Assembly: GCA_016860985.1 (NCBI GenBank) | Contig: BOKM01000001.1 | Location: forward strand, 399,462 to 463,461 | DNA from: Patescibacteria group bacterium | GTDB taxonomy: Bacteria > Patescibacteriota > Dojkabacteria > GCA-002793355 | DNA length: 64,000 bases | Direction of reading: 5' to 3' | In this document: in pieces, positions 4,878 through 52,616 of the stretch | How the letters are laid out: each line of letters opens with the position of its first letter | How positions within the stretch are numbered: the stretch's first letter is position 1 | Notes under the pieces: generated by a model | Told to the model about the DNA's origin: nothing | Database searches by the model: none | What the model saw: the letters and a program-made list of their open reading frames with translations, nothing else | Translations under genes and position numbers: made by a program

Positions 4878-5645
4878 GTGGTGCAACAAGAAAGCATCAG
4901 TATCCTCCCCGTTGCGAAGGACGACACTGACAAAATAAACGAGTGCGCAACACTCTTGGCAAACGAATTTGCGGATACTCTACGCGCAAAAGAGGAATAT
5001 CAAAAGAATGTAAAACTCTTTTCTTCTCCTACTTCCTACTGTTTTCAGGTTACAGCAAACAATCGATTTATCGGTATTATTGCGCTCAATTGTCACCCTT
5101 GGGAACAAATTAAAGAGCAGCTTTACCTCTCTCCTTCCACAAATAATGTAAAAGAAGAATTTAAGGAAGTTTCACTTGTTCCTTTTCGTACACTTATTGA
5201 ACACAAAAAATTAAAACCGCAAATGGTTGTTGATTACGCTTACACTTATATCTGCCCCTCTGAACGTGGCAAAGGATATGCAAGCAAGGCGTGGGAACTC
5301 CAAGAAGAATATGTATTAAGAAACTTTCCGAACTCTATTGGAATTATTATCGTCAGAAAAGCCAACTGCGCGCGAACAGATTGTCAAACTGTACTCCTTC
5401 ATATGCTCGCAAAAGAGCGACAGGCACAAGGCTTAGACCCTTCTGCATACGTGCAGGTAAAAGGAATCCCAATCTCCACAAAAGAAATAAAAAAAGCTGC
5501 ACAGATTTCGTACCCTATTTCTTTTTACAATGGTGTACAAGAAATGTCACATCTAGCAACTAAATATGGATTTACACCCTTTGCATTTACCAAAGCGTTT
5601 TGTCCTGTGTTTATCAAGAAAAATACTCCTACTCATGCAGAGTAA
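4878..5645 (+). CDS. Hypothetical protein, possibly GNAT-like
   Basis: The segment YICPSERGKGYASKAWE resembles the GNAT motif A (R/QxxGxG/A). Otherwise unassigned. Confidence 0.3.
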   Translation: MVQQESISILPVAKDDTDKINECATLLANEFADTLRAKEEYQKNVKLFSSPTSYCFQVTANNRFIGIIALNCHPWEQIKEQLYLSPSTNNVKEEFKEVSLVPFRTLIEHKKLKPQMVVDYAYTYICPSERGKGYASKAWELQEEYVLRNFPNSIGIIIVRKANCARTDCQTVLLHMLAKERQAQGLDPSAYVQVKGIPISTKEIKKAAQISYPISFYNGVQEMSHLATKYGFTPFAFTKAFCPVFIKKNTPTHAE

Positions 5646-8600
5646 GGTCGAGTGTTAACACGCGAACACGTTCTTTACCTTCAGGAAGGATCTCAATAAA
5701 CGGAACCCCTGAAGCAAACATTTTCGTAGTGTCCATAAGCTTTAGGTGATAGCGAGCATTTGGAACAACAAAGCTATATTCGCCTGACGTACTCGTAAAC
5801 GTACGGTAAAGCAAAGTATTGAACTCTGGATCAAACAACCCCAGCTCTAGCCCAGCAACTGCTACACCTTTGGTAGTTTTAACACTTCCGGTCGACTTTT
5901 TAGGAAGGAGCTGCACAATCTTAGCCAACAACAGCAACACATACACGCCAAGCACAATGAAGTTGTATTTGTGAGGATAGATATACGCAATATACCCTCC
6001 ATACGCAAAGCCGCCTAACAACAGTGCGTTGCTAAAGAACTCAATCACCTTTGTGAACATACTTTGAGCCTGTAAACGCTTTCGTTCTTGGTCGGAAAGC
6101 GTAACCGAATCGAGCGGAATCGAAAAGAGCATTCCTTCCGAAGCGTTTGTCAACTCAATCTCTTGACCTTTATAGATATTATTAAAACCACCATCATTAT
6201 CAGCAGTTATTACAGAAGAAGGGAAGGTGTATCCGGCAAGTGTCACTGAAATGGTAAAGACACCTTGTTTTGGACTGAGACGAAAACTTCCTGTTGCATC
6301 TGAAACTACGGTATCTGCAATCTCTTTGTTGATATGTATCAACCGTACAACGGCTCGAGGAAGTGGCTTCTTTGTACGAGAGTCGTACACTACCCCACAT
6401 TTCTGTCGTTTTTTTCTACTGATAAACCCAGCCAAAGAGAGCCAGATATTCCCAAAGATAGTTGGTTGCTGTAACGCAATGACTGCTTCAATCGCAAGCA
6501 TGCTTGACCCAACCACAATTGTGTTACGCCAAGGGAGTTCAGTTGCTACCATTACAGTTACTGTTTTTACGGCTGTGCAATAGCCATTGTCAGCCGTAAT
6601 ACTATACTCTTTTGTTATTTCTGGCTTAAAAGTTACTGAATCCACCGGAGTAAAATCCTCTTTAAAGCCCGCAATGCGAACGATTTCTGTATTTTTTGTT
6701 GTCCACGAAAGAGTAATTTCTCCTCCTTTTTTTATTAGTGTTTCAGAGGTAGTAAATGTATCAAAAGTTGGGCACGCCGGAGTCGTTCCTTTTACCACTG
6801 GAGGCAAGGTTACAGCTGCGATTACACGAGGAGTGGATACCGGGGTTGCGACAATAGTATTCGTTGGAGTCGTGGTTGGTGTAAGCGTGACGGTTGTTGT
6901 CGGAGTCGCAGTAACGGTTGTTGTTGGTGTGGCAGTTGGAGTTGTTGTGCCATAACTCATGGCACCAGTTCCATCTAACCCACTTACCTTCCAGTACTCT
7001 TTGCCATCAACAGTTACTACTTCAAGTTCTGCAGAGCTTTCCGTAAGTACATAGCCACCGGTACAAGTTGAGCTAATGTCCGCAACTGTTACTGCATTTG
7101 GGCAAACGCGAACCGAGGTTTGCCCCGGTAATTTGTAAATATAAATTGAGTGCGTACTTGAAATACCTGGTGCAGTTGTTGGATTAAGATTAACTACGAG
7201 CGACTTTGACGCATTGGGCAATGTGATTGCATTTACTTGACTCCAGTCTCGATCTTCTGACAAATCAATATTAAAATCTGATACAAGATATTCCCCGAAA
7301 GTAAGGAGCGCATTAAGGTTATCAATTCCTGGGCTAGCCGGATTGTAGTACCTGCTCACCAAACTTGTATTCTCAGACGTAGAAAACTGCTCTTCTCCCG
7401 TAATTTCTTCTGCCGTAGATATTACATCTGCACTTGAAATTAGATTGTATATTCGCGTACCTGAAGGCACGAGTTGCACACGGTGGTTCGCCAAGTCTGC
7501 AACGGTAATAACACCTGATACCGGATTACGCGCTAAGCCTCGTGGTTCGTAGTATTCTTCCGTTCCACTCCCTGTTACTGCTCCGTATTTACGAAGAAAT
7601 ACGCCAGAATCGTTGAATACTTGAATTTTAGTATGATAACTCTCTGATACATGAAGATTCCCCTCTTCGTCAAAGGCCATACCTCCAATATCAAAGAAAG
7701 CTCCGTCTGCGTCGCCAGCTTCACCACCAATTGTTCTCACATACGTTCCGTTTGTGTCAAAGACCTGAATCACCGATTTACTTACAATTTCATCATTGTA
7801 TTCTTCGGTTTTTGAAGAGACATAAATCTGATCGCTTGAGTCAATAATAATTGCTAGAATTTGCCCAAACTCTCCATTTGCTTCTCCAAAGGTTCCCCAC
7901 TGGGTAAGGTAATTGCCAGCGCTATCAAATTTCTGCACTCTGTGATTACGCGAATCTCCCACATAGATATTTCCGGTCGAATCGACTGCTATTCCGTAGC
8001 CACCTTGAAATTGCCCATCACCAGTTCCTGCTGCTTCGATGTGCAGTAGCTGTGAGCCATCAAGTGCGAATTTATGAAATCCACTATTATCAGAAACGTA
8101 AATTTGGTCATTTTTTATCGTCATAAAATAGGCTTCAGTGTCAAAAGTAGGTGGTTCAACTATCGTTTCCATATACGTTCCCGCATTTGTGAATTTCTGA
8201 ATTCTGCCTTCATATGCACCGTTATCGAGGACATATAAGTTACCCTCAGAATCGTATGCAACAGCACGAGGGAAACTGAATTTACCCGAAGTAAACCCAC
8301 TATTTCTCACACTCGACACAAATACTCTTGAGCTAGAAAATTTTTGAATCGCTTGATGGTCGTAATCTGCAATGTAATAGTTACCTGCTGAATCTGTAAC
8401 CACATCAACAGGAGTTAATATCTGCCACGCACTATGACCGTGTTCCCCCCACGACCTAATCCAATCACCATCACTTTCGAATTCAATAATTTTGTGACCA
8501 TCTGTTCCGTGTGCAGATGTTACCAATACATCTCCATTTGCTTTTACATGAATACCTCGAGGCACTGCAAGTTGTCCATCTCCATTTCCACAACTGCCGA

Positions 8601-9291
8601 AAGTTCTTATAAATGTCCCCGAAGGAGAAAAAACTTCAACTCTACAGTTGGGTTCAGAATCAACTACATATACATTTCCTGAAGCGTCGGTCGCAACGCC
8701 CTGTGGGTCCATAAACTGCCCATCACCCGAACCTTCTGAACCGAAAGAAGAAATAAATGTACCATTTACGGAGCGTTTAACAACTCTGTGATTATCACCA
8801 TCACTAACATAAAGGCTGTTACTCGCCGAATCGTAATGAATATATGTTGCATTGGAATAAGTTTCTCCTTCAGGTTGATCGAGCCCCCAGGAATCTATAT
8901 ATCCTCCATTACTATCTAGTTTGTAAGTCCAGTGCGCTGTTTGCACATAAAGGTTGTCTTGATTGTCTACAGTAAGTCCGGTAATTCCGATAGAAAACTC
9001 GCCCTCTCCATCGCCATACCTCCCAACAGTTCTTACTATTTCTCCATCTGCGTTCACTTTTACCAAGCGATAATTCAAATGATCGGTATACCAAACGCTT
9101 CCATCTGACATAACAACTAAGCTAACAGGTTTTCCAATATTTCGGTACGACTCAGGTAGATAGACCGCTTGCGACGATTCGGCCTTAACCTCTGGATTAT
9201 CGTTCTTAATGGCAAACGAATTAACACTCGTATACACAGCAACAAAGGAAAAAGCTATAAGGACCCCAAAAAGGTAAAGTTTTTTATTCAT
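5629..9291 (-). CDS. Giant surface protein: signal peptide, NHL-repeat beta-propeller region, Thr/Pro linker and the conserved C-terminal membrane module
   Basis: Signal peptide MNKKLYLFGVLIAFSFVAVYTSVNSFA. Many NHL-like blades (for example YVVDSEPNCRVEVFSPSGTFIRTFG). A TPT repeat linker. The C-terminus contains GVVYDSRTKKPLPRAVVRLI..DTVVSDATGSFRL (CarboxypepD_reg-like) flanked by TM helices. It is paralogous over the last ~430 aa to 41859..45038 and 45007..48837. Confidence 0.8.
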   Translation of the reverse strand: MNKKLYLFGVLIAFSFVAVYTSVNSFAIKNDNPEVKAESSQAVYLPESYRNIGKPVSLVVMSDGSVWYTDHLNYRLVKVNADGEIVRTVGRYGDGEGEFSIGITGLTVDNQDNLYVQTAHWTYKLDSNGGYIDSWGLDQPEGETYSNATYIHYDSASNSLYVSDGDNHRVVKRSVNGTFISSFGSEGSGDGQFMDPQGVATDASGNVYVVDSEPNCRVEVFSPSGTFIRTFGSCGNGDGQLAVPRGIHVKANGDVLVTSAHGTDGHKIIEFESDGDWIRSWGEHGHSAWQILTPVDVVTDSAGNYYIADYDHQAIQKFSSSRVFVSSVRNSGFTSGKFSFPRAVAYDSEGNLYVLDNGAYEGRIQKFTNAGTYMETIVEPPTFDTEAYFMTIKNDQIYVSDNSGFHKFALDGSQLLHIEAAGTGDGQFQGGYGIAVDSTGNIYVGDSRNHRVQKFDSAGNYLTQWGTFGEANGEFGQILAIIIDSSDQIYVSSKTEEYNDEIVSKSVIQVFDTNGTYVRTIGGEAGDADGAFFDIGGMAFDEEGNLHVSESYHTKIQVFNDSGVFLRKYGAVTGSGTEEYYEPRGLARNPVSGVITVADLANHRVQLVPSGTRIYNLISSADVISTAEEITGEEQFSTSENTSLVSRYYNPASPGIDNLNALLTFGEYLVSDFNIDLSEDRDWSQVNAITLPNASKSLVVNLNPTTAPGISSTHSIYIYKLPGQTSVRVCPNAVTVADISSTCTGGYVLTESSAELEVVTVDGKEYWKVSGLDGTGAMSYGTTTPTATPTTTVTATPTTTVTLTPTTTPTNTIVATPVSTPRVIAAVTLPPVVKGTTPACPTFDTFTTSETLIKKGGEITLSWTTKNTEIVRIAGFKEDFTPVDSVTFKPEITKEYSITADNGYCTAVKTVTVMVATELPWRNTIVVGSSMLAIEAVIALQQPTIFGNIWLSLAGFISRKKRQKCGVVYDSRTKKPLPRAVVRLIHINKEIADTVVSDATGSFRLSPKQGVFTISVTLAGYTFPSSVITADNDGGFNNIYKGQEIELTNASEGMLFSIPLDSVTLSDQERKRLQAQSMFTKVIEFFSNALLLGGFAYGGYIAYIYPHKYNFIVLGVYVLLLLAKIVQLLPKKSTGSVKTTKGVAVAGLELGLFDPEFNTLLYRTFTSTSGEYSFVVPNARYHLKLMDTTKMFASGVPFIEILPEGKERVRVLTLDLTLHE
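6835..6960. repeat. Tandem short repeats encoding the TPT(A/V)TPTTTVT linker in the NHL protein
   Basis: Repeated acggttgttgt(y)gg(w)gt units are visible in the DNA. The encoded Thr/Pro tract sits between the ectodomain and the C-terminal module. Confidence 0.5.
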
Positions 9292-9353: not shown

Positions 9354-10325
9354 TTACTGCACAAAGAAGCCTTCCCGCTTCTTTATTGCATCGGTAAAAG
9401 CGTTGAGTTTGTTCGCAACAACGTAGCTAAGTAATTGTGTTGTTGGTTCGCCAATCTCTGCGGCAACTGTAGAAGCGTAGATGCTGTCTCCTGGAGCATA
9501 CTTACTAAAGAATTGAGTCAAAGTACAATTTCCACATTTCCAACCTGTACCGGCATAAGATGAGTGTTCTCCATTATTTATTGCTTTTATATATGCCTGA
9601 AGTGCACCATACCCAGCATTGTAGGTGGCAAAAACGAAGTAGCTTCCCCCTCGTTTGTCATACCTCACCCCACACGCTGCCGTTCCCCCGTATTTTATTA
9701 TCAGTTTATTTTTAAAATCAGTAGACATATTGGTTGAGGCATTGCGAATATTTCCTGGGTTATTGTTCTGGCATGCCCAGCCTAAAAAGCCATGTGTTTT
9801 GTTTGGTTCAAACCGGCAATAGGTACCACTCGTACAAGGGACACATTTCTGAGTGGTTTGAGGGCAGTTGGGAGCGACTGTCCAGGGTTTACTATAATCA
9901 ATTGTCGGAGTTGGAGTCGGTGTAGAGGTAGGAGAGGAGGTTGGCTTTGCAGTTGGAGTAGGAGCTGTCGTTTTGGTTGGGGTTGGAGTCGTTGTTTTTT
10001 TCGGCGTTGGTGTTGGCGATGTTGTTTTTGTCGGGACACTTGTTGGCGTTACAGTCAAGATTAGACTAGAAGGAGTTGGAACAATAGTTGTAACTTGCAA
10101 CACGGAAGCGGTGACCGTTGGCGTAATCTGTGCTACCTTTTCAACCGTATCCTCTGACGAAGCCCCGAAGAGTTGTTTTTTGTAGGGCAAAGCGTACCCA
10201 AACGATTCTGCCATTGAAACTCCCATAATTACTAGTGCTGCAAAAGCATAAAAAACCACGCGTGATACAGATGCATTTCTACTATTTTTTACAGTCATTT
10301 TCTTGTTGATACGATAACTATACAA
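9354..10325 (-). CDS. Secreted protein: signal peptide, Thr/Pro-rich linker and a Cys-containing C-terminal domain
   Basis: N-terminal hydrophobic anchor. A TPTPKKTTTPTPTKTTAPTPTAKPT tract. The C-terminal region carries multiple Cys and Gly/Trp/Tyr-rich segments. No named domain recognised. Confidence 0.5.
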   Translation of the reverse strand: MYSYRINKKMTVKNSRNASVSRVVFYAFAALVIMGVSMAESFGYALPYKKQLFGASSEDTVEKVAQITPTVTASVLQVTTIVPTPSSLILTVTPTSVPTKTTSPTPTPKKTTTPTPTKTTAPTPTAKPTSSPTSTPTPTPTIDYSKPWTVAPNCPQTTQKCVPCTSGTYCRFEPNKTHGFLGWACQNNNPGNIRNASTNMSTDFKNKLIIKYGGTAACGVRYDKRGGSYFVFATYNAGYGALQAYIKAINNGEHSSYAGTGWKCGNCTLTQFFSKYAPGDSIYASTVAAEIGEPTTQLLSYVVANKLNAFTDAIKKREGFFVQ

Positions 10326-10392
10326 GAAATAGCCCTGAACGTGTAGTTTTACCTAGAACGAAACCTGCCACGTTCCTGGGAATGTCAAAACA

Positions 10393-10791: not shown

Positions 10792-10794
10792 ACT

Positions 10795-11556: not shown

Positions 11557-11593
11557 ACTCTTTATACGTATTAACTAAGTAAAATATTGCATA

Positions 11594-33135: not shown

Positions 33136-33140
33136 CAAGT

Positions 33141-39251: not shown

Positions 39252-40302
39252 TTAAGTCACCTACCTTGCTCCATTCAAACACTTTTTTAGCATCACTGAC
39301 CGTTAACCTTAGACATCCGGTACTTCTTGGCTTACCTATGTTTGTTTCTGGTTCAAAGATCTTCTTATCTCCAGTTTTTTGAAAACCTGGATACCAATAT
39401 ACTAAAGCATGTATACCGAGCATCGCTTTTTGTCGCGAATCATATGTAAAAGCCTGCCAGTAAGGCATCCATTTGTCGGCGGTTGAAGACCACGCGAGTG
39501 GCGATTTGTTAAGAATCTCATAAACACCAACAGGATTGTATTCCGGGAATGCACCTGAAATTCTGAATTTTTTGTAGCTTCCCTTTTCCCACATAAACAT
39601 CAATTGTCGAGAGCCATCAAACTCTAAATATTTTTGAGCAAACTGCCCATCTGTATTTGGCAAATCCTTACGCACAGGAACTTGTAACACCATTGGTTTA
39701 ATGGTCGTATACATTCCAGTTACTAATGAAAACTCACTATTACTGATATAGAGCTCTGCAACTTGTTGAGCCAAGCTCTCGTAGTCAACAACATTATCAT
39801 TGATTCTTGCCTGAACTGTTTTGTTCCCCTGCTTGTTTTTTAGTGTTTCTAGCGGTTGTGCAAAACGAATATTCTTTTCAAGTAGCTGCTGCAAACAGGG
39901 AATATCGATAGCAAGTTGGTAGCTTTTGCAAGAACCAATTTGAGGAACCTGCTGGGTGTATTGGCCGCACGAGAGTATTTCAGCCGCGCTCACAACGAGC
40001 TCTTCCGTGCCAAAATACAGGGCTACTTCTGGTCGAACATGCTTTAGGGACTTAGTGTAGTCGCTCGTACTTATACAACTTTCACTGCTCGTAGATTCGC
40101 CAAGTACAGCAGTTATGTTTTCTTGCTCCTTTAAAGCTAATTCGCTCACCCGCTGCGACATTGTATCTTCTACAACGACAGGAGATGGTTCTTGGTTCGA
40201 TGCGAAAATAAGTGGGTACTTAAGAACTCCAATGCCCCCAAATATTCCAAAGATACCAAAACAAAGAAGCCCCAAGAAGAATTTGTCGGAATTACTACTC
40301 AT
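39235..40302 (-). CDS. L,D-transpeptidase (YkuD-domain) protein
   Basis: C-terminal catalytic motif HALVY..G...KPRSTGCLRL...D...V..W...GDLIVV with the conserved His and Cys. Confidence 0.7.
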   Translation of the reverse strand: MSSNSDKFFLGLLCFGIFGIFGGIGVLKYPLIFASNQEPSPVVVEDTMSQRVSELALKEQENITAVLGESTSSESCISTSDYTKSLKHVRPEVALYFGTEELVVSAAEILSCGQYTQQVPQIGSCKSYQLAIDIPCLQQLLEKNIRFAQPLETLKNKQGNKTVQARINDNVVDYESLAQQVAELYISNSEFSLVTGMYTTIKPMVLQVPVRKDLPNTDGQFAQKYLEFDGSRQLMFMWEKGSYKKFRISGAFPEYNPVGVYEILNKSPLAWSSTADKWMPYWQAFTYDSRQKAMLGIHALVYWYPGFQKTGDKKIFEPETNIGKPRSTGCLRLTVSDAKKVFEWSKVGDLIVVHN

Positions 40303-41824
40303 CTTGTGAAGATTGATTCTTAAGTCGACTGATCAATTCGCTTAAGCGCTTTTCGCGCCTTAACATAATATCGTTGAGCTTATCCAAGGTTTCAATCCTT
40401 TCGTGAAGTTCTCGCTCAGCATTTTTTTGTGCCGTTACGTCTCGCACAATTTCGATAGCACCAACCTTGCGCCCGTAGTTATCGTAAAGGGGTTTTGCGA
40501 CACATAACACAACTTGGTTTTTTCCTTCTAAGTATACAGACAGCGTTTCTCCTTCTCTGTGAACATCTTGCCCTTTATAATACTTACTGGTTGTTAGGCC
40601 TTTAAGAACTAAATCTACGAGCATTGGTCGTTTCTTTCCATAAAATGGTACTGAATAGGCATAATCGCCCTTTCCGACCATTACTTCGGATTTAATTCCT
40701 GTCATTGTTTCCATCGCCTTATTCCAATTGATGACAATACCTTTTTCGTCTATTACAAAAACAGGGTCTGGAAGAAAGTTAATTATAGAAGAAAACAGAA
40801 ACTCTGATTTTTTTATTTTTTTTCTCTCGTTCTTTTGTTTGGTAATGTTGTGAAGGTAATAAATATATCCGACGGTACGTTTCTTTTCATCAAGCAATGA
40901 TGTTCTCATTACTTCTACCCACACATTTAGCTTCTTTATAAATACCTCAAAACCTTCGGCAGTATCGATAAACATTCCTCGACCCATAATTGTTGTACCT
41001 TTTTTCGAATCATCACCCATCATCTTTTTTGCAGCCTCGTTTGTCTCTATAACTTCCCCACGTGCATTTGTAATTACGATACCACTAGTAATACTATCCA
41101 ATACTTTTTCTCTTGCTGCGGGTAATAGCTCAAAATATTTATTACGGAAGAAACTATAACTAAGCACTAATCCTGTAGCTGCAAATGCAATAGGAGTTAA
41201 ATCGTACCCGTTCTCGAATGAAGGAATATAAATATATGCGATATTCGCAATCCAAGGGAAAATGATCGAGATTAACGTATTACGAACCAATCTCTTTGTT
41301 TCTGCTACTTGTTTGCTTGCATAGTACGCGAGCAAACCGACTCCAGATGCCAAACACAAATATTGGCCAATCATATGAACGAAAAAGAGCGGGCCATGTT
41401 CATAAACAACTGTTGCAAACCCTCCCTCTGAAACGGCTCTCGTACTCGTCCAGAGTAAATGATGATACTCATTCGTAAAAACGACCGTACACGCCAAAAC
41501 AACGAAGACTGTCAGCAAATATTTCACCCATCTAAAAGCATTTTTGTCGTACTGGGCAAATTCAATGGAAAACAATAGCCACATTGGACCAGCAAGTGTT
41601 ATTCCAAGGTAAGAGAGTTGGCTTAATAATACTTTATTTGCAGCTCCGTAGACGCTACCTTCAAGTGCCCCCATTAACGACCACCACGCTGCCGCAGCCA
41701 TAACGTAACCTAACAAGAGGGCCCCTTTGTAGTTTTTTCTGCGGATAAGAAAGAGTGATAACACAAGCAGGAAAATAAAATTCACAAAGAGAACTGTTGA
41801 GTAAGCAGTAATTTGGAGCAGCAT
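40295..41824 (-). CDS. Membrane sensor: N-terminal 7TM region followed by two PAS domains, with no kinase, GGDEF or other output domain
   Basis: About 7 hydrophobic helices over the first ~230 aa. PAS-like segments include ITSGIVITNARGEVIETNEAAKKMMG and PDPVFVIDEKGIVINWNKAMETMTG. The protein ends after a coiled-coil segment. Confidence 0.6.
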   Translation of the reverse strand: MLLQITAYSTVLFVNFIFLLVLSLFLIRRKNYKGALLLGYVMAAAAWWSLMGALEGSVYGAANKVLLSQLSYLGITLAGPMWLLFSIEFAQYDKNAFRWVKYLLTVFVVLACTVVFTNEYHHLLWTSTRAVSEGGFATVVYEHGPLFFVHMIGQYLCLASGVGLLAYYASKQVAETKRLVRNTLISIIFPWIANIAYIYIPSFENGYDLTPIAFAATGLVLSYSFFRNKYFELLPAAREKVLDSITSGIVITNARGEVIETNEAAKKMMGDDSKKGTTIMGRGMFIDTAEGFEVFIKKLNVWVEVMRTSLLDEKKRTVGYIYYLHNITKQKNERKKIKKSEFLFSSIINFLPDPVFVIDEKGIVINWNKAMETMTGIKSEVMVGKGDYAYSVPFYGKKRPMLVDLVLKGLTTSKYYKGQDVHREGETLSVYLEGKNQVVLCVAKPLYDNYGRKVGAIEIVRDVTAQKNAERELHERIETLDKLNDIMLRREKRLSELISRLKNQSSQDE

Positions 41825-41858: not shown

Positions 41859-44800
41859 TTATTTATTCTCATCTAGAACAAGAGTCGTTGTAACTAATGT
41901 AAGGTTGTCGCGATTGTTCTTAGAGTCCACATATATCGCTTTTACTTTTTGTCCTGCCTCAATGATTGAATACCGGTTATCCATGACCTTAAGGTAGTAA
42001 GCACCACTCGCGACCGCGAAATTATAATTTCCTTCTTTATCAGTAAATGTTCTGTATAAAAGATTTTTAAACTCAGTATCAAATAACCCCAATTCTACCC
42101 CGCCAACTGCCTCACCCTTTTTTGTTCGTACAGTTCCAACTTTCTTGCTGTGTAAGAGAAGTAATAGTGCTTTTGCCCCAAGAATAACGAGATAAAGTGA
42201 TACAGCAAAATAATTGTATATGTGCGGGTAAACAAAACTTGCATACAGACTGTACACGAGCCCTACTAACAATAATCCTGTGCTCCCATATGCTGCAATG
42301 CGATCAATAACGGATACTATTTTCACCCTTTGTGCCTGTGCCTCACTAATGACAATTGGATCCATAGGAACTGAAAGCATAACAGTATCAGCAGCATTTT
42401 TCACTGCAAAAGACTTTCCAAGATACACATTTGCATAACCTCCATCAACAAGTTGATTAACCAAGGAAGAAGGAAACGAATACAATGGGTGGTCAACCGT
42501 TAGAATATATTCTCCTGCATGTGCAGACAATCTCATGACTCCGTTCGCATCTGTAACCACCGTATCTACGATTTTTCCGCCATTTTGAGTTTTCAAACGT
42601 ACAACTGCTCGAGCAATAGGCTTTTTCGTCACCGAATCATAAACAACCCCGTAGCTTCTTCTTCTTTTTCTATCTAGAAAACCGGCGAGCGCCAAGAATA
42701 TATTCCCTTGCACTGTATTTTGCATCGCGATGGCACCACCTTTTGCAGCCAGCGCATAGACTGAGGCAAACTGTATAACAGCCGCTTCTACCACCAGTGC
42801 ACCGGCGCCAATTGCTGTGGCATTGCTCCACGGAACAGTTTTTACTACAGCAATCTCTCGTTGTATTTTTGAATTACAATTTCCATTATCTGCCATAAGA
42901 TTTATTGTCATCGATGTTGGAGGAGTTATTACCTTTTCTCCCTGTGGAGGAAGGTGCGCATCATACCCACTCCACACTACTCTAGTCGCATTTGTCGCTT
43001 TCCAAGAGAAGGTTAGCGTTTCACCTTCTTCAATGACGGTACTTGATACTTTTAGGTAGTCAAACGTTGGACAACTCTGAGTTTCGATTTCATTTTGCTT
43101 TGGAGGTAAATCATTATCCCCTGTCACTGGTGGCAAGGTAGGAATCATTATGGAAGAGGAAGGCAAAACTGTAGTTATACCAGTAGTGCTACCTGTAACT
43201 GTTGTAGTCACAGAAGTTGTCACCGAGGATGTAACTGTTATCGTGGTTGTTACTGTTCCGGTTGGGGTTGTTGTTCCAGATGTTGTAGCAGTTGTGGTCG
43301 GTGTGGCAGTAGAAGACGAGGTTGGAGTACTTGTTGGCGTATCAGATGGTGAATCGGTGGGAGTATCAGTAGGAGTATCGGTTGGTGTTGGTGTTGCAGT
43401 TGGAGTACTCGTAGGAGCGACGTACTGAAAACTTGGATAGCCATCGTTGTAGCTTCCAGTAATTACCCAAAGACTCGAGAAATTCCACCCAGAAAAGGTT
43501 CCTTCTGTCTTCATTGCGGATGTGCTTTCCCCACTACCTCCCGCGCTATTTGATTCTCCGCTTGTATCTGTATCCCAATAACTTGATGTGATACTTCCAG
43601 TCCCTTGACTATATCCGGCAAAACCTCCGATGTCCCATTCATAATCTGGTTCTGTGTTTACCGTAAGTCCGCCTGCTGCATAACTGTTAGTGATAGTCGA
43701 TGTGCGAAATTCTCCCACAAACCCACCAATTGCCCACGCATAGTTACCATCTTGAGGGTTTGGTGAATTAACAGTAACCGATGCCCGTGTGTAGGAGTTC
43801 GAAATTGTGCCACTTCGATGTTCTCCAACAAAACCTCCAACACCAGAAACGTCTTCAAGAGCGGTAACCGTAACATTTCCAGTTGCAAACGATTCCTGAA
43901 TAGAGGGATTGGCTTGTCCATACCTATTTCTTGTTAATCCTGTGAACCCACCAATGTCATTTCCCCACGGACCTGTATTCGAAACACTTCCTGTTGAATA
44001 ACTTCTTAATACGGTTGCTCCGTCATATACTGTTCCAGCAAAACCACCAACATCATAGTTGTCTTCTCCATCGGCCGTAACATTTCCAGTTGAATAGCAA
44101 TCTTCTACTCTAGTTGTTCCGAGATACGTACCATATCCTCCCAGACCACCAACAAACCCCGCATTGTCGTAGTTATCACCATAGCCACTCGCTGCTCCAA
44201 CTCCCACATGCACATCACCAGTAGCATAGCTTCTGTAGACTTCAGAACTGCCGACTTGCCAACCAACAAATCCTCCGGTGAAATACGTATCGACCCCACT
44301 ACTAATATCCCCGGTTGCATAAGAATCTTCAATTACCGCAGTACCGCGAGTCATCCCCACAAAACCGCCTGTTCCTCCATAAACTCCATCGAGGAGACTA
44401 ATTTCTACATTTGCATGACTGGTCGTGATGTAGGCATCACCTTCTGCTATACCTACCAAACCACCGACAGTTTCAGTGTCGTAGTCCATTATGACTTGCG
44501 TAATAGTACCTGTTGCACTGCTATGGTGAAGTTCTCCTCCGTTCATCGTGCCAACGAGGGTACTTATCGTCCCCATAGAGCTTACCGATTTAACCACTTG
44601 GACGTTTGTAAGATTTACACCGGTAATTGTCGCCCCATTTGTATTTGCAAAAAGCCCAGTCGATGTCGCATTAACCACCAACGAGAGATTTTGTATTTCG
44701 TAACTGTCACCATCGTATCTACCTTCAAATCCCCCTCCCGACAATCCAATTGGCGTAAACGATACGGCAGTACAATCAATATCATTCATTTGAAGATAAT

Positions 44801-45038
44801 AGGCAGTAAGATCCGAATCAACTTCTTGCAATTGTGCGCAGGTTGTTACTTGATACGGATCACCAATCGTTCCTGTACCTGAACCAGAAAAAGCTGATGC
44901 CTGCTTACCTTTTACTAATGCGAGAATAGTTACAAAAACGAGCACTGATGCAACAGACAATATCAATGACCAGGATTGAAGTATCCATACAAAAAATGAA
45001 TGAGTGCTACGGCGCTGCATTGTTTGCGAGATTAACAA
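41859..45038 (-). CDS. Giant surface protein: N-terminal anchor, about nine GLUG-motif repeats, Thr/Pro/Ser linker and the conserved C-terminal membrane module
   Basis: Recurring GGLVG/GGFVG...Y.TG.V units (VGGLVGIAEGD, TGGFVGMTRG, IGGFVGEFRTS and others) match the GLUG motif. The C-terminal RRRSYGVVYDSVTKKPIARAVVRLK..DTVVTDANGVMRL and GVELGLFDTEFKNLLYRTFTDKEGNYNF are homologous to the tails of 5629..9291 and 45007..48837. Confidence 0.75.
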   Translation of the reverse strand: MLISQTMQRRSTHSFFVWILQSWSLILSVASVLVFVTILALVKGKQASAFSGSGTGTIGDPYQVTTCAQLQEVDSDLTAYYLQMNDIDCTAVSFTPIGLSGGGFEGRYDGDSYEIQNLSLVVNATSTGLFANTNGATITGVNLTNVQVVKSVSSMGTISTLVGTMNGGELHHSSATGTITQVIMDYDTETVGGLVGIAEGDAYITTSHANVEISLLDGVYGGTGGFVGMTRGTAVIEDSYATGDISSGVDTYFTGGFVGWQVGSSEVYRSYATGDVHVGVGAASGYGDNYDNAGFVGGLGGYGTYLGTTRVEDCYSTGNVTADGEDNYDVGGFAGTVYDGATVLRSYSTGSVSNTGPWGNDIGGFTGLTRNRYGQANPSIQESFATGNVTVTALEDVSGVGGFVGEHRSGTISNSYTRASVTVNSPNPQDGNYAWAIGGFVGEFRTSTITNSYAAGGLTVNTEPDYEWDIGGFAGYSQGTGSITSSYWDTDTSGESNSAGGSGESTSAMKTEGTFSGWNFSSLWVITGSYNDGYPSFQYVAPTSTPTATPTPTDTPTDTPTDSPSDTPTSTPTSSSTATPTTTATTSGTTTPTGTVTTTITVTSSVTTSVTTTVTGSTTGITTVLPSSSIMIPTLPPVTGDNDLPPKQNEIETQSCPTFDYLKVSSTVIEEGETLTFSWKATNATRVVWSGYDAHLPPQGEKVITPPTSMTINLMADNGNCNSKIQREIAVVKTVPWSNATAIGAGALVVEAAVIQFASVYALAAKGGAIAMQNTVQGNIFLALAGFLDRKRRRSYGVVYDSVTKKPIARAVVRLKTQNGGKIVDTVVTDANGVMRLSAHAGEYILTVDHPLYSFPSSLVNQLVDGGYANVYLGKSFAVKNAADTVMLSVPMDPIVISEAQAQRVKIVSVIDRIAAYGSTGLLLVGLVYSLYASFVYPHIYNYFAVSLYLVILGAKALLLLLHSKKVGTVRTKKGEAVGGVELGLFDTEFKNLLYRTFTDKEGNYNFAVASGAYYLKVMDNRYSIIEAGQKVKAIYVDSKNNRDNLTLVTTTLVLDENK
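43195..43430. repeat. Thr/Pro/Ser-rich repeat tract (coding) in the GLUG protein linker
   Basis: Encodes TPTATPTPTDTPTDTPTDSPSDTPTSTPTSSSTATPTTTATTSGTTTPTGT. The DNA shows short, imperfect tandem units. Confidence 0.5.
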
Positions 45039-48000
45039 CTAAATCATGTGCAATCAAACGAACTTCTGACGATGACTTCCTTTTCACTGCAGGAATTTCA
45101 ATGCCTTGCGTATTATTGCCAGAATATACTTTATACGTGTTATCCATAAGACGAAGAACGTATGCTTTATTGGGCACCGCAAAGTTATATTCACCTTTTT
45201 CGTTGGTAAACGTTCTATAAAGAAGTGTATTAAACTCTTTATCAAATATTCCAACTTCGACTCCTGCAAGAGGCTTTCCCGTCACTGTACTTACCCTACC
45301 AAAGGTTCGCGGCGACCATAAAGTAAGAAGGAGTTTTCCAATACATACTGAGCCATATAATACAGATGCAAAAATATTTATTGGTAAAGGAAAAAGTGTT
45401 GCGACATACAAACTGTAACCAAATCCCGCAAAGAGCGTAATGGTACTTGCAGTGCTTAAAGCTTCAAAACCAGCATCAAAAATCAATCGTGTTCTTCTTT
45501 TTGCTTGTGTTTCTTTTTCAGGGTCTAAAGGTATAGAGACCGTTACTTGTTGATCGGCAGCTCCTTGTGTAAGAACTCCCCCAAAATAAAGATGCGTATA
45601 TCCACCGTCAGTATCACCCTTTACATAAGTAGAAGGAAATTGATAACCAGCGCGAACAACCCGTATAAGATACCTTCCGGGTTGAGTTTTTAATTGGAAA
45701 ACACCCTGAGCATCTGACACGACTGTATCAACAACAGCTTCAGTGTCAACATTTAATAATCGAATAACAACTCGACCGAGCGGATTCTTCGTTTTCGAGT
45801 CATACACTATGCCCCAAGCTTGGCGTTTCTTTCTTCTATTGAAAATCGATAAAGCGACTCCCCACAAATTTGTTGACATTACCGCTCCCGAAGAGCCAAT
45901 AGTCGCCGTACCAAGTGAGACTGCTTGTTGCAAAAGAATTTCTGCTACCAAGGCACTTGCACCGACAGCAGTTGCAGTTTGCAATTGTTGTTGAGCAGGA
46001 TTCTCAAAGTTCACTACTTCAGAAGCAATACAAGCACCGTTATCTGCTATAAGCTTTGCTTTTCGATCTGCAGGGACAATAAATGGTGTAGAGCCAGACA
46101 CAGCTACAAGAGAACCATTTATTGTAACTTTTGTGGTATTTTTTGTTATCCAAGAGAGTTCAACCCGCTCGCCTTCTGCTGCAATAGTAGGCGAACTAGC
46201 AAAAGTTAAAATAACAGGACAAATGGGACTTTGTTGGGCTTCTCTTCTTGAGGATATTGTATTTTCTGGTGTGGCAGTGACACTTGAGGTAACAGGAGGA
46301 GTTGATGTGACAGTTCCGGTTCCTGTTAAAGTTGGTGTTACTGTTGCAGTTACACTCGTTGGTGTAGGTGTAACTGTAGCTGTGCTCGATGGTGTTGGTG
46401 TAGGAGTTGGTTGGACCGCAGTTGTAAATTGAACGACCTCCCCATACGCGGTGCCGAGTGAATTCGTTGCGTATGCTCTTACATAATATAGTGTATTCGA
46501 TTGCAACTCGGAAAGCAGCGTATACATTTCTCCAGTAGTGCCGGTTGTTGATTGCACAGTGTCACTAAGTGTTGGGGAAGATTCAGTTGTAGAATAGACG
46601 ACACCACGTTCGATAATAGCAAGGTATCCATCTGACTCGACATTTCCTCCAACCATAGCAGAGTTGTGAGTGAGCAGTGAAATTGAGCCTGTGGTTACTG
46701 TGGGTAATTCCCCACAGGGCACAAAGGAGGAGTCTCGTTTTACAATTATCGACGATTGACCTGCTCCTGTTTGCATTGCGAGTGCAAGATAATTCGCACC
46801 GTTACAAGCCGGGTCATGGTATAAATCAATATCATCTGCATGAAGACCTGTTTCAGTAAACTCACTCAGCACATTATTCCATGAACTCCCGTTAAATTCT
46901 TTGACGGAAAAAGTTGTATCTCCAGTAGGTACTGCGTACCACATGGCGTCTTCAGTTTGATTATATTCAAGACTAGCAGGAAAAGTGCTTGAATCATAAA
47001 CAGAAGGGAAATCGAAATCCGCACCCATTTGTGTTTTTGCAGAGCCACCTGGCGAGCTGTATACCTTAAACGTGTTTGTTACAACATTTTCGGTTGCGAA
47101 GATCCAAGAGGAGTTGCCTTGATCATAATCAAAATCTTGAACAGAAGTCGGAGAAGTAAACAAAGCAGACACAGGATTATTCCAAAGAGTTCCTGTAAAC
47201 TCACTCACGCTTCCATTTGAACATGCGTACCACGTAAAATTATTAACTGGATCTCCTATCAGTAAATTGGGATTAAGTATGGTTAATCCGTTTGTTGTAG
47301 TACAGGGAATTTCTTGAATCGTTACCCATCCACCGAGATCTGGGTTAAAGTTGTATCCATATACAAGATCATCTCCTACACCACTCGGGTCGGGAAAGAC
47401 GTATAAATATGGCAATTGAGCAATTGGTTGACAAAACATCCCAAGTCCGTACGCTGCATTATTTGAGCTTGCACCAGCGACACCTAACACGCCCCAAACT
47501 CCATTCTCATAACGGTATAATGTTGCTTTATCACTTTCAGAGGCGTCTGCAATAAGTGCAACCATACGCCCATCTTCGCAAGTGTCAAAACTGAACCTTC
47601 CTTGACCACTTGACGTTAAAGGGTTGGAAAACCTACTGTTTCCAACTAACTCCCAGTTCCCTGTGTTTTTATTGTATCTGCGCACAGTTACCTTATAATT
47701 ACTTTCACTTTGACTATACTCTGGGTAAGCAACTATTGGATCCTGATTTTGCTTGTCGGTACGTACGAAAACACTGCCCGTATACCCTCCAGGATTAATC
47801 GGAGATCCGACATTTTCCCACTCTGCAACGGGAAGAGTGGGGGTCGGCACGGGGGGTATATCAAATTGCATTTTGTATATTGAGCCCGGATCACACGTGG
47901 AACCGTTGTAAAGACATCCATTCGATGCATACATCAAATCGTTGTTAACATCTAGTGCAATATTGTAAGGGCCATTATATGTCCCTGAATCAGGAGAGGG

Positions 48001-48837
48001 CATCCAAGCATATTCCCACAAGAAAGAACCTGCGTTTGAGATTTTCACTACATTTCGAGAACCGTCCATCAGGTAAATATTGCCCTCTAAATCTACCTGA
48101 CTATCTAAAATCATACTTGCTTCTGCTATATCATTTTCATATTGCAATACGCCGGATGAGTTATACTTCCTCACCCTATTCAAATGATCACCACCAGACA
48201 CAAAAATATTATTGTCTTGATCTACAATAACAGTGGCAGAATTGGCAAGCATTGGGTCTGATTCAAACATAAACTCTGAAATAAAGCTTCCCTCCACGCT
48301 CCATTTTTGGAGATAGTCTTGCGTTGTAGCAACAACAATATTTCCAGCAGAATCACGAGACACGTCAGAAATTGGTCGAGCATTGGGGGTTACTCCATAC
48401 TCAATAATTTTTTCTACAAAAGTTCCGTCTAAGTTGAACTTGAGAACATAGTAATGATTTACGAGAAGCACATAATCACTTCCGATATCGATACTTATAA
48501 AATAAGGAGCTGTTGCTAAATCTTCGTATGGAGGAGCATTGAATGTGTTAATATGGGTGCCGCTTGGAGAATAAATCTCAATAACACTGGAATCCGACTG
48601 CCCGGTATAAACCGTTCCATCTGGAGCAACATCGAGGAATGCTATCTGATCTCCCCACTGAGAATCATCTACACCAGTTGTTGGCCACGGGTTGCCAGGT
48701 CGCCACTCCAGTACAAGCGATAGAGAGTCGTAGACTGCTTGACTTGTAGGACTCTTTACAAAAGCAAACAGCATGAACACAACCAACGTTGAGAGAATAG
48801 CAATAACTGCTTGAATCTTCCTGAGCATTACGAACAT
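45007..48837 (-). CDS. Giant surface protein: signal peptide, beta-propeller-like repeats, Fn3-like domain, Thr/Pro linker and the conserved C-terminal membrane module
   Basis: Repeated hhKh..xGxFhxxF blade-like units (SVIEIYSPSGTHINTF, YVLKFNLDGTFVEKI, RVRKYNSSGVLQYE). An Fn3-like ending YYVRAYATNSLGTAYGEVVQFTT. The C-terminal QAWGIVYDSKTKNPLGRVVIRLL..DTVVSDAQGVFQL and GVEVGIFDKEFNTLLYRTFTNEKGEYNF are homologous to the other two giants. Overlaps the downstream paralog by 32 nt. Confidence 0.75.
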   Translation of the reverse strand: MFVMLRKIQAVIAILSTLVVFMLFAFVKSPTSQAVYDSLSLVLEWRPGNPWPTTGVDDSQWGDQIAFLDVAPDGTVYTGQSDSSVIEIYSPSGTHINTFNAPPYEDLATAPYFISIDIGSDYVLLVNHYYVLKFNLDGTFVEKIIEYGVTPNARPISDVSRDSAGNIVVATTQDYLQKWSVEGSFISEFMFESDPMLANSATVIVDQDNNIFVSGGDHLNRVRKYNSSGVLQYENDIAEASMILDSQVDLEGNIYLMDGSRNVVKISNAGSFLWEYAWMPSPDSGTYNGPYNIALDVNNDLMYASNGCLYNGSTCDPGSIYKMQFDIPPVPTPTLPVAEWENVGSPINPGGYTGSVFVRTDKQNQDPIVAYPEYSQSESNYKVTVRRYNKNTGNWELVGNSRFSNPLTSSGQGRFSFDTCEDGRMVALIADASESDKATLYRYENGVWGVLGVAGASSNNAAYGLGMFCQPIAQLPYLYVFPDPSGVGDDLVYGYNFNPDLGGWVTIQEIPCTTTNGLTILNPNLLIGDPVNNFTWYACSNGSVSEFTGTLWNNPVSALFTSPTSVQDFDYDQGNSSWIFATENVVTNTFKVYSSPGGSAKTQMGADFDFPSVYDSSTFPASLEYNQTEDAMWYAVPTGDTTFSVKEFNGSSWNNVLSEFTETGLHADDIDLYHDPACNGANYLALAMQTGAGQSSIIVKRDSSFVPCGELPTVTTGSISLLTHNSAMVGGNVESDGYLAIIERGVVYSTTESSPTLSDTVQSTTGTTGEMYTLLSELQSNTLYYVRAYATNSLGTAYGEVVQFTTAVQPTPTPTPSSTATVTPTPTSVTATVTPTLTGTGTVTSTPPVTSSVTATPENTISSRREAQQSPICPVILTFASSPTIAAEGERVELSWITKNTTKVTINGSLVAVSGSTPFIVPADRKAKLIADNGACIASEVVNFENPAQQQLQTATAVGASALVAEILLQQAVSLGTATIGSSGAVMSTNLWGVALSIFNRRKKRQAWGIVYDSKTKNPLGRVVIRLLNVDTEAVVDTVVSDAQGVFQLKTQPGRYLIRVVRAGYQFPSTYVKGDTDGGYTHLYFGGVLTQGAADQQVTVSIPLDPEKETQAKRRTRLIFDAGFEALSTASTITLFAGFGYSLYVATLFPLPINIFASVLYGSVCIGKLLLTLWSPRTFGRVSTVTGKPLAGVEVGIFDKEFNTLLYRTFTNEKGEYNFAVPNKAYVLRLMDNTYKVYSGNNTQGIEIPAVKRKSSSEVRLIAHDLVVNLANNAAP

Positions 48838-52614: not shown

Positions 52615-52616
52615 AA

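What the first reader, a model, noticed from the sequence alone, without database searches (positions are those of the whole stretch)
5629..9291. A third paralog with the same C-terminal module carries an NHL beta-propeller head and lies ~33 kb from the tandem pair
The 1220-aa NHL-repeat protein ends with the same module: Ig-like domain, TM, SRKKRQK, GVVYDSRTKKPLPRAVVRLI, TM hairpin, GLELGLFDPEFNTLLYRTFTSTSGEYSF. Three copies with three different heads (NHL, GLUG, propeller/Fn3) in one 64-kb window argue for an expanded, modular family of surface proteins. Such a family would fit host or partner-cell attachment in an epibiotic bacterium.
Basis: seen in the sequence. Interest (0 to 1): 0.7.

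Follow-up and report, generated by a model that had tools for sequence, protein, structure and literature searches.

The report
Shared membrane tail on swappable surface heads
Three large surface proteins of a tiny-genome (CPR/Patescibacteria) bacterium carry unrelated outward-facing heads on one shared, undescribed C-terminal membrane module that recurs in thousands of protein clusters, so it looks like a standard "socket" for mounting binding domains on the cell.

Summary
ORF 5629-9291 (-) encodes a 1220-aa protein: signal peptide, 12 NHL blades, a middle domain, a Thr/Pro linker, an Ig-like domain, then a ~300-aa tail. The tandem genes at 41859-45038 and 45007-48837 carry the same tail. Core tails are 38-42% identical. 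The heads are unrelated, apart from a weak A/C propeller match.

The family is not a local expansion. A profile of the tail finds 7,314 50%-identity clusters. In every full-length hit examined the tail sits at the extreme C-terminus, on proteins of about 280 to 4,586 aa. All informatively labelled genome loci are Patescibacteria. Each window paralog has orthologs elsewhere that keep its own head, so the fusions are old, with occasional head swaps.

AlphaFold models the tail confidently (pLDDT 89). It is an internal duplication of [TM helix, basic cluster, transthyretin-like beta-sandwich]. Charge bias predicts head outside and both sandwiches in the cytoplasm. Pfam and NCBIfam have no model for the whole module, no solved structure matches it, and I found no paper on it.

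In Paceibacteria-type loci, sensor-less histidine kinases and receiver proteins lie immediately downstream. This hints at signalling but is not shown for this window. Attachment function is untested.

The parts
9211..9291 (-). Protein A aa 1-27: N-terminal signal peptide or anchor (MNKKLYLFGVLIAFSFVAVYTSVNSFA)
   Evidence: Hydrophobic segment aa 5-23, KD 2.07; sequence. The cleavage site is inferred, not predicted by a tool.
7444..9132 (-). Protein A aa ~54-616: 12 NHL blades, probably two six-bladed beta-propellers (variable head)
   Evidence: Pfam NHL 113.4 bits against cut-off 20. AF2 gives 48 strands in 12 groups of four, mostly pLDDT 70-92. Foldseek top hits are TRIM71, Thin and Lin41 NHL propellers, E ~1e-22.
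6949..7443 (-). Protein A aa 617-781: middle domain with a Cys730/Cys743 pair; fold unresolved
   Evidence: No Pfam hit. AF2 pLDDT is mostly below 60 with a shallow alignment. It is 42-59% identical in five orthologs. Cys positions.
6787..6948 (-). Protein A aa 782-835: Thr/Pro-rich linker
   Evidence: The most T/P/S-rich 40-mer starts at aa 782. AF2 shows coil with pLDDT below 50.
6538..6786 (-). Protein A aa 836-918: Ig-like beta-sandwich with conserved Cys840/Cys905; an accessory spacer, not core to the module
   Evidence: AF2 tail model residues 7-81, pLDDT 91-98. C5 and C70 are invariant among the three tails. The same domain occurs alone in tandem arrays in other proteins.
6472..6534 (-). 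Protein A aa 920-940: Ala/Gly/Val-rich weakly hydrophobic segment with a conserved Glu ('TMa'); probably not a true membrane span
   Evidence: Family mean KD 1.25. AF2 pLDDT below 50. It has no counterpart in the duplicated unit.
6418..6471 (-). Protein A aa 941-958: TM1 (QQPTIFGNIWLSLAGFIS), predicted to run from outside to inside
   Evidence: It aligns with TM3 in the unit1/unit2 profile comparison and is followed by the basic cluster.
6400..6417 (-). Protein A aa 959-964: basic cluster RKKRQK (stop-transfer, cytoplasmic face)
   Evidence: Family mean is 4.05 K+R in ~9 residues at this position, against 0.2-0.3 in the opposite loops; regex result.
6106..6399 (-). Protein A aa 965-1062: transthyretin-like (CarboxypepD_reg) beta-sandwich 1 with the GVVYDSxTKKPL, FPS, DGG..Y.G and IPLD motifs
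5980..6093 (-). Protein A aa 1067-1104: one 38-residue helix, made of a basic juxtamembrane stretch plus TM2
   Evidence: AF2 helix 232-269 of the tail model, pLDDT above 90. The stretch before TM2 has net charge +1.6 across the family.
5908..5970 (-). Protein A aa 1108-1128: TM3, joined to TM2 by a 3-5 residue uncharged loop
   Evidence: AF2 helix 273-293. KD 2.52. Loop K+R is 0.21.
5632..5907 (-). Protein A aa 1129-1220: basic stretch (PKKSTGSVKTTKG) plus transthyretin-like beta-sandwich 2 (GLELGLFDPEFNTLLYRTFTSTSGEYSF)
   Evidence: AF2 pLDDT 84-97. Homologous to unit 1: hhalign probability 99.5%, E 2.4e-23. Pfam CarboxypepD_reg detects the matching domain in paralog C.
41862..43085 (-). Paralog B (gene 41859-45038, GLUG head): Ig-like domain plus the same tail, aa 652-1059
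45010..46239 (-). Paralog C (gene 45007-48837; weak NHL-like propeller match, otherwise no recognised head domain): Ig-like domain plus the same tail, aa 867-1276
   Evidence: Identical to a protein on a 1,051,512-bp NCBI contig.
40295..41824 (-). Gene 34 bp downstream of paralog B: HisKA_7TM + PAS membrane protein with no kinase core. Possible but unproven signalling partner.
   Evidence: Pfam. The adjacency is NOT conserved in the closest syntenic relative, L081.

Best explanation
Protein A is one of three paralogs in this window built on a conserved, previously undescribed C-terminal membrane module. All informatively labelled relatives come from Patescibacteria (CPR).

The variable N-terminal part consists of a signal peptide, a binding-type head (in A, 12 NHL blades), a Thr/Pro linker and an Ig-like spacer. 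It is exported and displayed outside the cell.

The module that holds it in the membrane is an internal duplication of [TM helix running out-to-in, Lys/Arg cluster, transthyretin-like beta-sandwich], with the two units joined by one returning helix. That gives three membrane spans and places both beta-sandwiches in the cytoplasm.

The module therefore works as a standard socket. Evolution mounts different extracellular heads on it: NHL, GLUG, DUF5122, FG-GAP, Fn3, cadherin-like, and giant heads of up to 4.2 kb of protein. The conserved cytoplasmic pair provides a constant interface to something inside the cell.

Shown here: the shared tail, the unrelated heads, the family size, the C-terminal position in every full-length hit examined, the fold, the internal duplication, and old head-tail fusions with occasional swaps.

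Inferred: the membrane topology, surface display, and ligand or partner-cell binding by the heads.

Speculative: what the cytoplasmic domains bind.
For: Tail shared, heads not.

Family size and position: 7,314 clusters at E<=1e-3 and 679 at E<=1e-30. The module ends at the C-terminus in every full-length hit, on proteins from ~280 to 4,586 aa, and in all 83 genomic copies examined.

Taxonomy: 79 loci, and every informative label is Patescibacteria. These include Dojkabacteria, Paceibacterota, Nomura-, Staskawicz-, Lloyd-, Campbell-, Vogel- and Doudnabacteria, and WWE3.

Head diversity.

Duplication: hhalign probability 99.5%, with TM1 aligned to TM3.

Topology: across 113 tails, K+R counts are 4.05, 3.67 and 2.2 on the three flanks assigned to the cytoplasm, against 0.28 and 0.21 in the two loops assigned to the outside. 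Paired cysteines occur only N-terminal to the membrane region. The extra hydrophobic segment is A/G-rich and modelled at pLDDT below 50.

Old fusions: orthologs keep both head and tail. The B/C tandem pair is conserved in a relative. The tail tree groups mostly by head type, with exceptions.
Against: No experiment or dedicated topology predictor was available, and I could not inspect the model coordinates. The topology rests on the positive-inside rule.

If the A/G-rich segment does span the membrane, the module would have four spans and both sandwiches would lie outside.

Binding by the heads is inferred from domain type only.

Nothing here shows that the protein is expressed. Promoter- and terminator-like sites near the gene are no more frequent than in shuffled sequence.
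Confidence: 0.6

Rival explanations
1. Outside-in signalling receptor (an extension of the best explanation rather than a strict alternative). The head senses a ligand or partner cell. The three-span tail and its cytoplasmic sandwiches pass the signal to membrane kinases that have no sensor domain of their own.
For: In 80 loci, histidine kinases and receiver-only response regulators occupy the +1 and +2 positions downstream of the tail gene, on the same strand, in 15/76 and 11/65 cases. They occupy none of ~400 genes at positions +/-3 to 7. Intergenic gaps are -47 to +84 bp, and several different synteny contexts are involved. The cluster representative carries HisKA + HATPase_c. Several of these kinases start with only short TM segments directly before HisKA, and some have no N-terminal TM at all. 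In the window, paralog B is followed after 34 bp by a HisKA_7TM + PAS protein.
Against: Protein A has no such neighbour; the downstream gene is convergent. The 7TM-PAS gene is absent from the syntenic locus of the closest relative. The association was seen only in Paceibacteria-type subfamilies, and shared ancestry inflates the counts. No interaction was tested.
Confidence: 0.3
2. Four-span pedestal with everything outside. The A/G-rich segment and TM1 form a hairpin, so both beta-sandwiches are extracellular. They would form a wall- or S-layer-embedded base beneath the head, perhaps tied to peptidoglycan.
For: The fold class is usually extracytoplasmic. Two hydrophobic stretches precede the basic cluster. 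A YkuD L,D-transpeptidase gene lies near paralog B both here and in the relative L081.
Against: This would place ~10 Lys/Arg on outside flanks and ~0.5 on inside loops, a strong violation of the positive-inside rule. The first segment is weakly hydrophobic, carries a conserved Glu and Gln, is modelled at pLDDT below 50, and has no counterpart in the duplicated unit. The tail domains have no paired cysteines.
Confidence: 0.2
3. Cleavable sorting signal. The TM plus basic cluster would act like an LPXTG, PEP-CTERM or PGF-CTERM signal recognised by a sortase-like enzyme, and the head would be released or attached to the wall.
For: A conserved PW motif, a hydrophobic stretch and then RKKR resemble a tripartite sorting signal.
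Against: No LPXTG, PEP or PGF motif is present. NCBIfam shows no sorting-domain hit. None of the window ORFs scanned against Pfam matched a sortase. The signal is followed by ~260 conserved, well-folded residues, which terminal sorting signals never have.
Confidence: 0.07
4. Recent whole-gene duplication within this genome, followed by divergence of the heads.
For: B and C are adjacent and overlap.
Against: The A/B and B/C heads share no detectable similarity while the tails are ~40% identical. Each paralog has orthologs with its own head in other organisms, and the tandem pair itself is conserved in a relative.
Confidence: 0.03

Closest known systems
C-terminally anchored or sorted surface proteins of monoderm bacteria and archaea (LPXTG/sortase substrates, PGF-CTERM, PEP-CTERM)
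   Same: Variable exported passenger, Thr/Pro-rich linker, then a conserved C-terminal element with a hydrophobic helix followed by a Lys/Arg cluster. One element is reused on many different heads.
   Different: No sorting motif is present, and the element is not terminal. It continues for ~260 more residues with two folded domains and two further membrane helices. Nothing indicates cleavage.
Fibrillar adhesins / MSCRAMM-type proteins (SdrD B, CnaB and SpaA prealbumin-like stalk domains)
   Different: In those proteins the beta-sandwiches are extracellular stalk repeats. Here they flank membrane helices, number exactly two, and are predicted to be cytoplasmic. Protein A has no repeated stalk.
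Transthyretin-like domain of carboxypeptidase D / Pfam CarboxypepD_reg (PF13620)
   Different: Domain 1 carries a conserved ~40-residue extension (FPS...DGG.Y..Y.G...IPLDP). The context, fused to TM helices at the C-terminus of surface proteins, is not described for this Pfam family.
Receptors with beta-propeller ectodomains (NHL-propeller sensor kinase PknD, recalled from memory; BT4663 hybrid two-component sensor; LRP6 tandem propellers)
   Same: Propeller head outside, membrane span, conserved cytoplasmic part. BT4663 and LRP6 tandem propellers appear among the fold hits.
   Different: Protein A has no kinase or other recognised signalling domain. Any signalling would need a separate partner.

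Membership tests
NHL-repeat beta-propeller proteins (PF01436) | Repeated NHL motif scoring above the Pfam gathering cut-off | tested here: met
   113.4 bits against cut-off 20, E 1.8e-33.
NHL-repeat beta-propeller proteins (PF01436) | Four-stranded blades forming six-bladed propellers | tested here: met
   AF2 gives 48 strands in 12 groups of four, pLDDT mostly 70-92. Top Foldseek hits are six-bladed NHL domains. I could not check without coordinates whether these form two propellers or one.
CarboxypepD_reg / transthyretin-like domain (PF13620) | Sequence match above the gathering cut-off, and a seven-strand beta-sandwich fold | tested here: met
The CPR C-terminal tail module (defined here; no database name found) | Position at the extreme C-terminus | tested here: met
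   A, B and C all end with it. So do all full-length database hits and all 83 genomic copies.
The CPR C-terminal tail module (defined here; no database name found) | Order: TM, Lys/Arg cluster, (W)G-V-Y-D-S-x-T-K-x-P sandwich, long helix + TM hairpin, basic stretch, second sandwich | tested here: met
   Alignments A1 and A2 with invariant Y134, G166, D198, Y205, P224 and G335; AF2 secondary structure.
Sortase (LPXTG) substrates | LPXTG-like motif immediately before a terminal TM helix and basic tail | tested here: not met
   No LP.[TSA]G or NP.TG motif in A, B or C. No NCBIfam anchor hit. The TM helix is not terminal.
PEP-CTERM / PGF-CTERM / T9SS C-terminal sorting domains | Matching NCBIfam/TIGRFAM sorting-domain model at the C-terminus | tested here: not met
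   The NCBIfam scan at E<=0.01 returns none. There are no PEP or PGF motifs.
Fibrillar adhesins | Stalk of tandemly repeated domains projecting an adhesive head | tested here: not met
   Protein A has a single Ig-like spacer and a Thr/Pro linker. Some relatives do carry many Ig-like repeats.
Fibrillar adhesins | Demonstrated or homology-supported adhesive domain | not testable with these tools
   NHL and GLUG are binding-type folds, but no ligand is known for these heads.
Sensor partner of a two-component system | Conserved operon with a histidine kinase or response regulator | tested here: inconclusive
   Met in ~16-20 of 80 loci of other subfamilies. Not met for protein A. For paralog B the neighbour is a 7TM-PAS protein that is not conserved in relative L081.
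Receptor kinases with NHL ectodomain (PknD-like) | Cytoplasmic kinase domain | tested here: not met
   No kinase family appears in the Pfam or NCBIfam scans.

The most novel reading that the evidence does not exclude
The tail is a signal-coupling module restricted to or strongly enriched in Patescibacteria. A three-span membrane unit with two cytoplasmic transthyretin-like domains would relay what the interchangeable extracellular heads bind (host or partner-cell surface) to sensor-less histidine kinases or other cytoplasmic machinery. That would make it a general contact-sensing receptor system of epibiotic CPR bacteria, with cytoplasmic use of a fold otherwise known from extracellular proteins.
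Probability: 0.25. Interest if true: 0.8.

Novelty: new variant of a known kind. Interest (0 to 1): 0.58.

Why it matters
CPR/Patescibacteria make up a large share of bacterial diversity and appear to live attached to other cells. Yet the literature I could read attributes host contact mainly to type IV pili plus unnamed adhesins.

A single conserved membrane module that carries hundreds of different binding heads gives a sequence handle for listing the surface repertoire of any CPR genome. With the profile built here it could be catalogued, and the variable heads could be used as candidate host-specificity determinants.

If the two beta-sandwiches really are cytoplasmic and talk to the adjacent sensor-less kinases, the module would be a new receptor architecture. 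It would also offer a testable route to how these minimal cells sense contact.

Tried and rejected
- Fourth copy in the window: tblastn with tail A and a six-frame search with a 113-sequence family HMM find only the three genes.
- Solved homologue by sequence: the PDB profile search gave nothing significant. The best hit was a NOMO2 prealbumin repeat at E 0.005.
- Sorting signals (LPXTG, PEP, PGF, T9SS): rejected.
- Recent duplication: rejected.
At ~40% amino-acid identity synonymous sites are saturated, and no closely related DNA pair with different heads was available.
- 7TM-PAS neighbour of paralog B as a conserved partner: rejected as a conserved feature, because it is absent in relative L081.
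- M50 site-2 protease adjacency (15 loci): it tracks the rpsL-rpsG-fusA synteny block, so I do not count it as functional evidence.
- RNA genes and composition: no tRNA or Rfam hits, and GC is uniform at ~41%, so there is no sign of a mobile island.
- Promoter and terminator scan: sites next to gene A are no more frequent than in shuffles.
- Literature: six full-text searches and two papers read gave no description of the module. The library is incomplete, so absence is not proof.
- Source genome copy number: the genome is not a GTDB representative, so further copies outside the window could not be counted.

Full report
**1. The observation**

The ORF listing gives an ATG-initiated ORF at 5629..9291 on the minus strand, 1220 aa, exactly as reported. 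Two further large minus-strand ORFs, 41859..45038 (1059 aa, "B") and 45007..48837 (1276 aa, "C"), overlap each other and lie 32.6 kb away.

- BLASTP between whole proteins aligns only the C-terminal 450-500 residues: A/B 38%, E 6e-92; A/C 37%, E 1e-74; B/C 34%, E 9e-74.
- For the core tail alone (membrane region to the end, ~300 aa) identities are 42, 38 and 39%.
- The heads give no hit for A/B and B/C. For A/C there is only 23% over 278 aa at 42 bits.
- A six-frame search with a family HMM finds exactly three copies in the 64 kb.

**2. Anatomy of protein A**

- N-terminal hydrophobic signal or anchor.
- Twelve NHL blades. Pfam NHL scores 113 bits. AF2 gives 48 strands in 12 groups of four at mostly pLDDT 70-92. 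Foldseek's best hits are six-bladed NHL propellers of TRIM71, Thin and Lin41, together with tandem-propeller ectodomains.
- A middle domain of unresolved fold with a Cys pair.
- A Thr/Pro-rich linker.
- An Ig-like sandwich with a conserved Cys pair.
- The tail.

An AF2 model of the Ig-like domain plus tail, built on a 52-sequence alignment, is confident (mean pLDDT 89.1, pTM 0.69). The one exception is residues 89-112, an Ala/Gly-rich hydrophobic stretch. The order of elements is:

1. Ig-like domain.
2. Weak hydrophobic helix.
3. Short helix, then RKKRQK.
4. Beta-sandwich 1.
5. One 38-residue helix.
6. Turn.
7. A 21-residue helix, then a basic stretch.
8. Beta-sandwich 2.

**3. Internal duplication and topology**

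A profile-profile comparison of the first half of the tail against the second gives probability 99.5% and E 2.4e-23 over 90 columns. It aligns the helix before RKKRQK with the last TM helix. The module is therefore a duplication of [TM, basic cluster, sandwich], and the two units are joined by one returning helix.

Across 113 family tails, the flanks after TM1, before TM2 and after TM3 carry 4.05, 3.67 and 2.2 Lys+Arg. The loop before TM1 and the TM2-TM3 loop carry 0.28 and 0.21. By the positive-inside rule (established knowledge), the sandwiches are cytoplasmic and the head is outside, with three spans.

Three further observations fit this topology:
- The extra A/G-rich segment is weakly hydrophobic (mean KD 1.25), carries a conserved Glu, is modelled at pLDDT below 50, and has no counterpart in unit 2. 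I therefore treat it as non-spanning.
- All paired cysteines lie N-terminal to the membrane region.
- The duplicated unit gives TM1 and TM3 the same orientation.

This topology is an inference. The rival is four spans with everything outside, and it cannot be excluded without coordinates or experiments.

**4. How big and how old is the family**

- A profile of the three tails, searched against 1.84 billion cluster representatives, gives 7,314 hits at E<=1e-3, 3,959 at 1e-10 and 679 at 1e-30.
- In every full-length hit the module ends at the C-terminus. Total protein lengths run from about 280 to 4,586 aa.
- Hits that match only profile positions 1-90 are giant proteins with up to 45 tandem copies of the Ig-like domain. 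That domain is therefore a general spacer and not part of the core.
- A scan of one genome per GTDB species returned 115 relatives in 79 loci. Every informative label is Patescibacteria: Dojkabacteria, Paceibacterota, several Parcubacteria lineages, WWE3 and Doudnabacteria. Two loci labelled Gammaproteobacteria come from automated bins. The patterns used were specific, so this shows breadth within CPR, not exclusivity.
- Protein C is identical to a protein on a 1,051,512-bp NCBI contig. Protein A also occurs on a Logan contig from run DRR258780. Together with the gene content, this indicates that the window is ordinary chromosome of a ~1-Mb CPR genome whose nearest labelled relatives are Dojkabacteria.

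**5. Modular or duplicated?**

- Among 36 long family members the heads include NHL (10), GLUG (7), SGL/SBBP propellers, DUF5122, Fn3, FG-GAP, PD40, cadherin-like and P-domain.
- Each window paralog has orthologs elsewhere with its own head:
  - A with P0018-21 and P0024: tail 39-48%, head 39-42% over ~750 aa.
  - B with P0015: tail 57%, head 58%.
  - C with P0014: tail 72%, head 53%.
- A per-domain comparison of A with six orthologs shows head and tail diverging at similar rates.
- P0014 and P0015 are adjacent on one contig in the same order as C and B.
- An NJ tree of tails groups them mostly by head type, with exceptions. P0016 has a B-like tail but a different head. One tail clade contains both GLUG (P0026) and DUF5122 (P0023, P0030) heads.

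The three genes are therefore ancient, separately inherited lineages of a modular family in which heads are occasionally exchanged. They are not a recent local expansion.

**6. Genomic context and a hint of function**

Clustering the ORFs of 80 loci shows histidine kinases and receiver-only response regulators at the +1 and +2 positions downstream of the tail gene, on the same strand:
- 15/76 at +1 and 11/65 at +2.
- None of about 400 genes at positions +/-3 to 7.
- Intergenic gaps of -47 to +84 bp, and several different synteny backgrounds.

The cluster representative carries HisKA + HATPase_c. Several of these kinases have only short N-terminal TM segments directly before HisKA, and some have none. 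That is the architecture of kinases that rely on an accessory membrane sensor (established knowledge for BceS/LiaS-type kinases). In those subfamilies this suggests that the tail-bearing protein supplies the sensing.

In the window the case is weak:
- Protein A has a convergent downstream gene.
- Paralog B is followed after 34 bp by a HisKA_7TM + PAS protein.
- That gene is missing in the syntenic relative, where YkuD follows directly.

I therefore keep signalling as a secondary hypothesis. An M50 protease is adjacent in 15 loci but travels with the rpsL-rpsG-fusA block, so I do not count it.

**7. Comparison with known systems**

The logic is that of C-terminally anchored surface proteins: variable passenger, Thr/Pro linker, conserved C-terminal element. 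Membership fails for the known classes:
- No LPXTG, PEP or PGF motif is present.
- No NCBIfam sorting domain is found.
- None of the window ORFs scanned against Pfam matched a sortase.
- The helix-plus-basic element is not terminal.

Protein A is a true NHL-repeat protein and contains a true CarboxypepD_reg domain. Neither Pfam nor NCBIfam models the module as a whole. Six literature searches and two relevant papers gave no description. A 2026 review of the phylum attributes attachment to type IV pili, and the 2023 genetic study of Saccharibacteria mentions only "multiple adhesins".

**8. Verdict**

- Observation: confirmed.
- Interpretation: partly supported. Modularity holds; local expansion does not; attachment is untested.
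  - The tail is a very large family with no database model or paper that I could find, and every informatively labelled genome copy is Patescibacteria.
  - It has a defined duplicated architecture.
  - Its transthyretin-like domains are probably cytoplasmic.
  - In some lineages it is operonic with sensor-less two-component systems.
- I rate it a new variant of a known kind, of moderate-to-good interest.

Noticed in passing
window 40295-41824 (-): A 509-aa protein with HisKA_7TM (7-TM sensor region) and PAS domains but no HisKA/HATPase kinase core. It lies 34 bp downstream of paralog B and overlaps the next gene (YkuD, 39235-40302). It is absent from the otherwise syntenic locus L081.
   Followed up: partly
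window 34855-36550 (+): An OmpR-type response regulator (34855-35526) overlaps a 343-aa protein in which Pfam finds only HisKA (aa 256-323) and no HATPase_c. The counterpart in L081 is 463 aa, with only faint HAMP and weak HisKA hits on record. It may be a kinase lacking a recognisable ATPase domain.
   Followed up: no
window 9354-16559 (-): Upstream of gene A on the same strand lie several membrane-anchored or secreted-looking proteins without Pfam hits. They are a 323-aa protein with a Thr/Pro linker and a Cys-rich C-terminal domain (9354-10325), a 1210-aa Cys-rich protein (11594-15226) and a 455-aa protein (15192-16559). A DUF2202 protein (10795-11556) sits among them. This may be a surface-protein neighbourhood.
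   Followed up: no
window 27029-29253 (+): Two overlapping ORFs carry pieces of a PEP-utilising enzyme in unusual order. The PEP-utilizers mobile domain is at the end of the first ORF (477 aa). PPDK_N (ATP-grasp part, profile positions 101-311) is in the second (264 aa). This may be a split or permuted gene.
   Followed up: no
window 32175-34439 (+); also L081 16043-18759: Cytochrome b5-like and ferric-reductase-like (FAD/NAD-binding) membrane proteins. This redox pair is conserved next to the two-component genes in the relative as well, which seems unexpected for a minimal CPR genome.
   Followed up: no
loci L007, L011, L012, L016, L034, L049, L057, L076 and others: In Paceibacteria-type genomes the tail-bearing gene is followed directly by a histidine kinase, in most cases with no evident extracellular sensor domain, and then by a receiver-only response regulator. 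Headless ~300-aa versions of the tail sit after an MreB/PBP2-containing gene block, usually with a receiver protein adjacent.
   Followed up: partly
loci L033, L036, L044, L050, L068, L073, L078, L079 and others: One or two copies of a ~320-aa protein with a signal peptide, beta-rich body and C-terminal TM anchor (no Pfam hit) lie immediately upstream of the tail gene in 18 loci. This may be a second conserved partner.
   Followed up: no
proteins P0022, P0054, P0066 (database hits): The Ig-like domain that precedes the tail in A, B and C occurs as 20-45 tandem repeats in giant proteins (3,293-5,406 aa) that show no match to the core tail in the profile search.
   Followed up: no
loci L043 and L065: Two tail-bearing contigs are labelled 'uncultured Gammaproteobacteria' in automated TPA bins, while all other labelled loci are Patescibacteria. 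This is either mislabelling or mis-binning, or a real occurrence outside CPR.
   Followed up: no
window 51994-54310: A weak, sub-threshold PilN-like hit (52617-53165) is flanked by two ORFs without Pfam hits (51994-52614 and 53222-54310). These may be type IV pilus assembly genes, the system usually credited with host attachment in this phylum.
   Followed up: no
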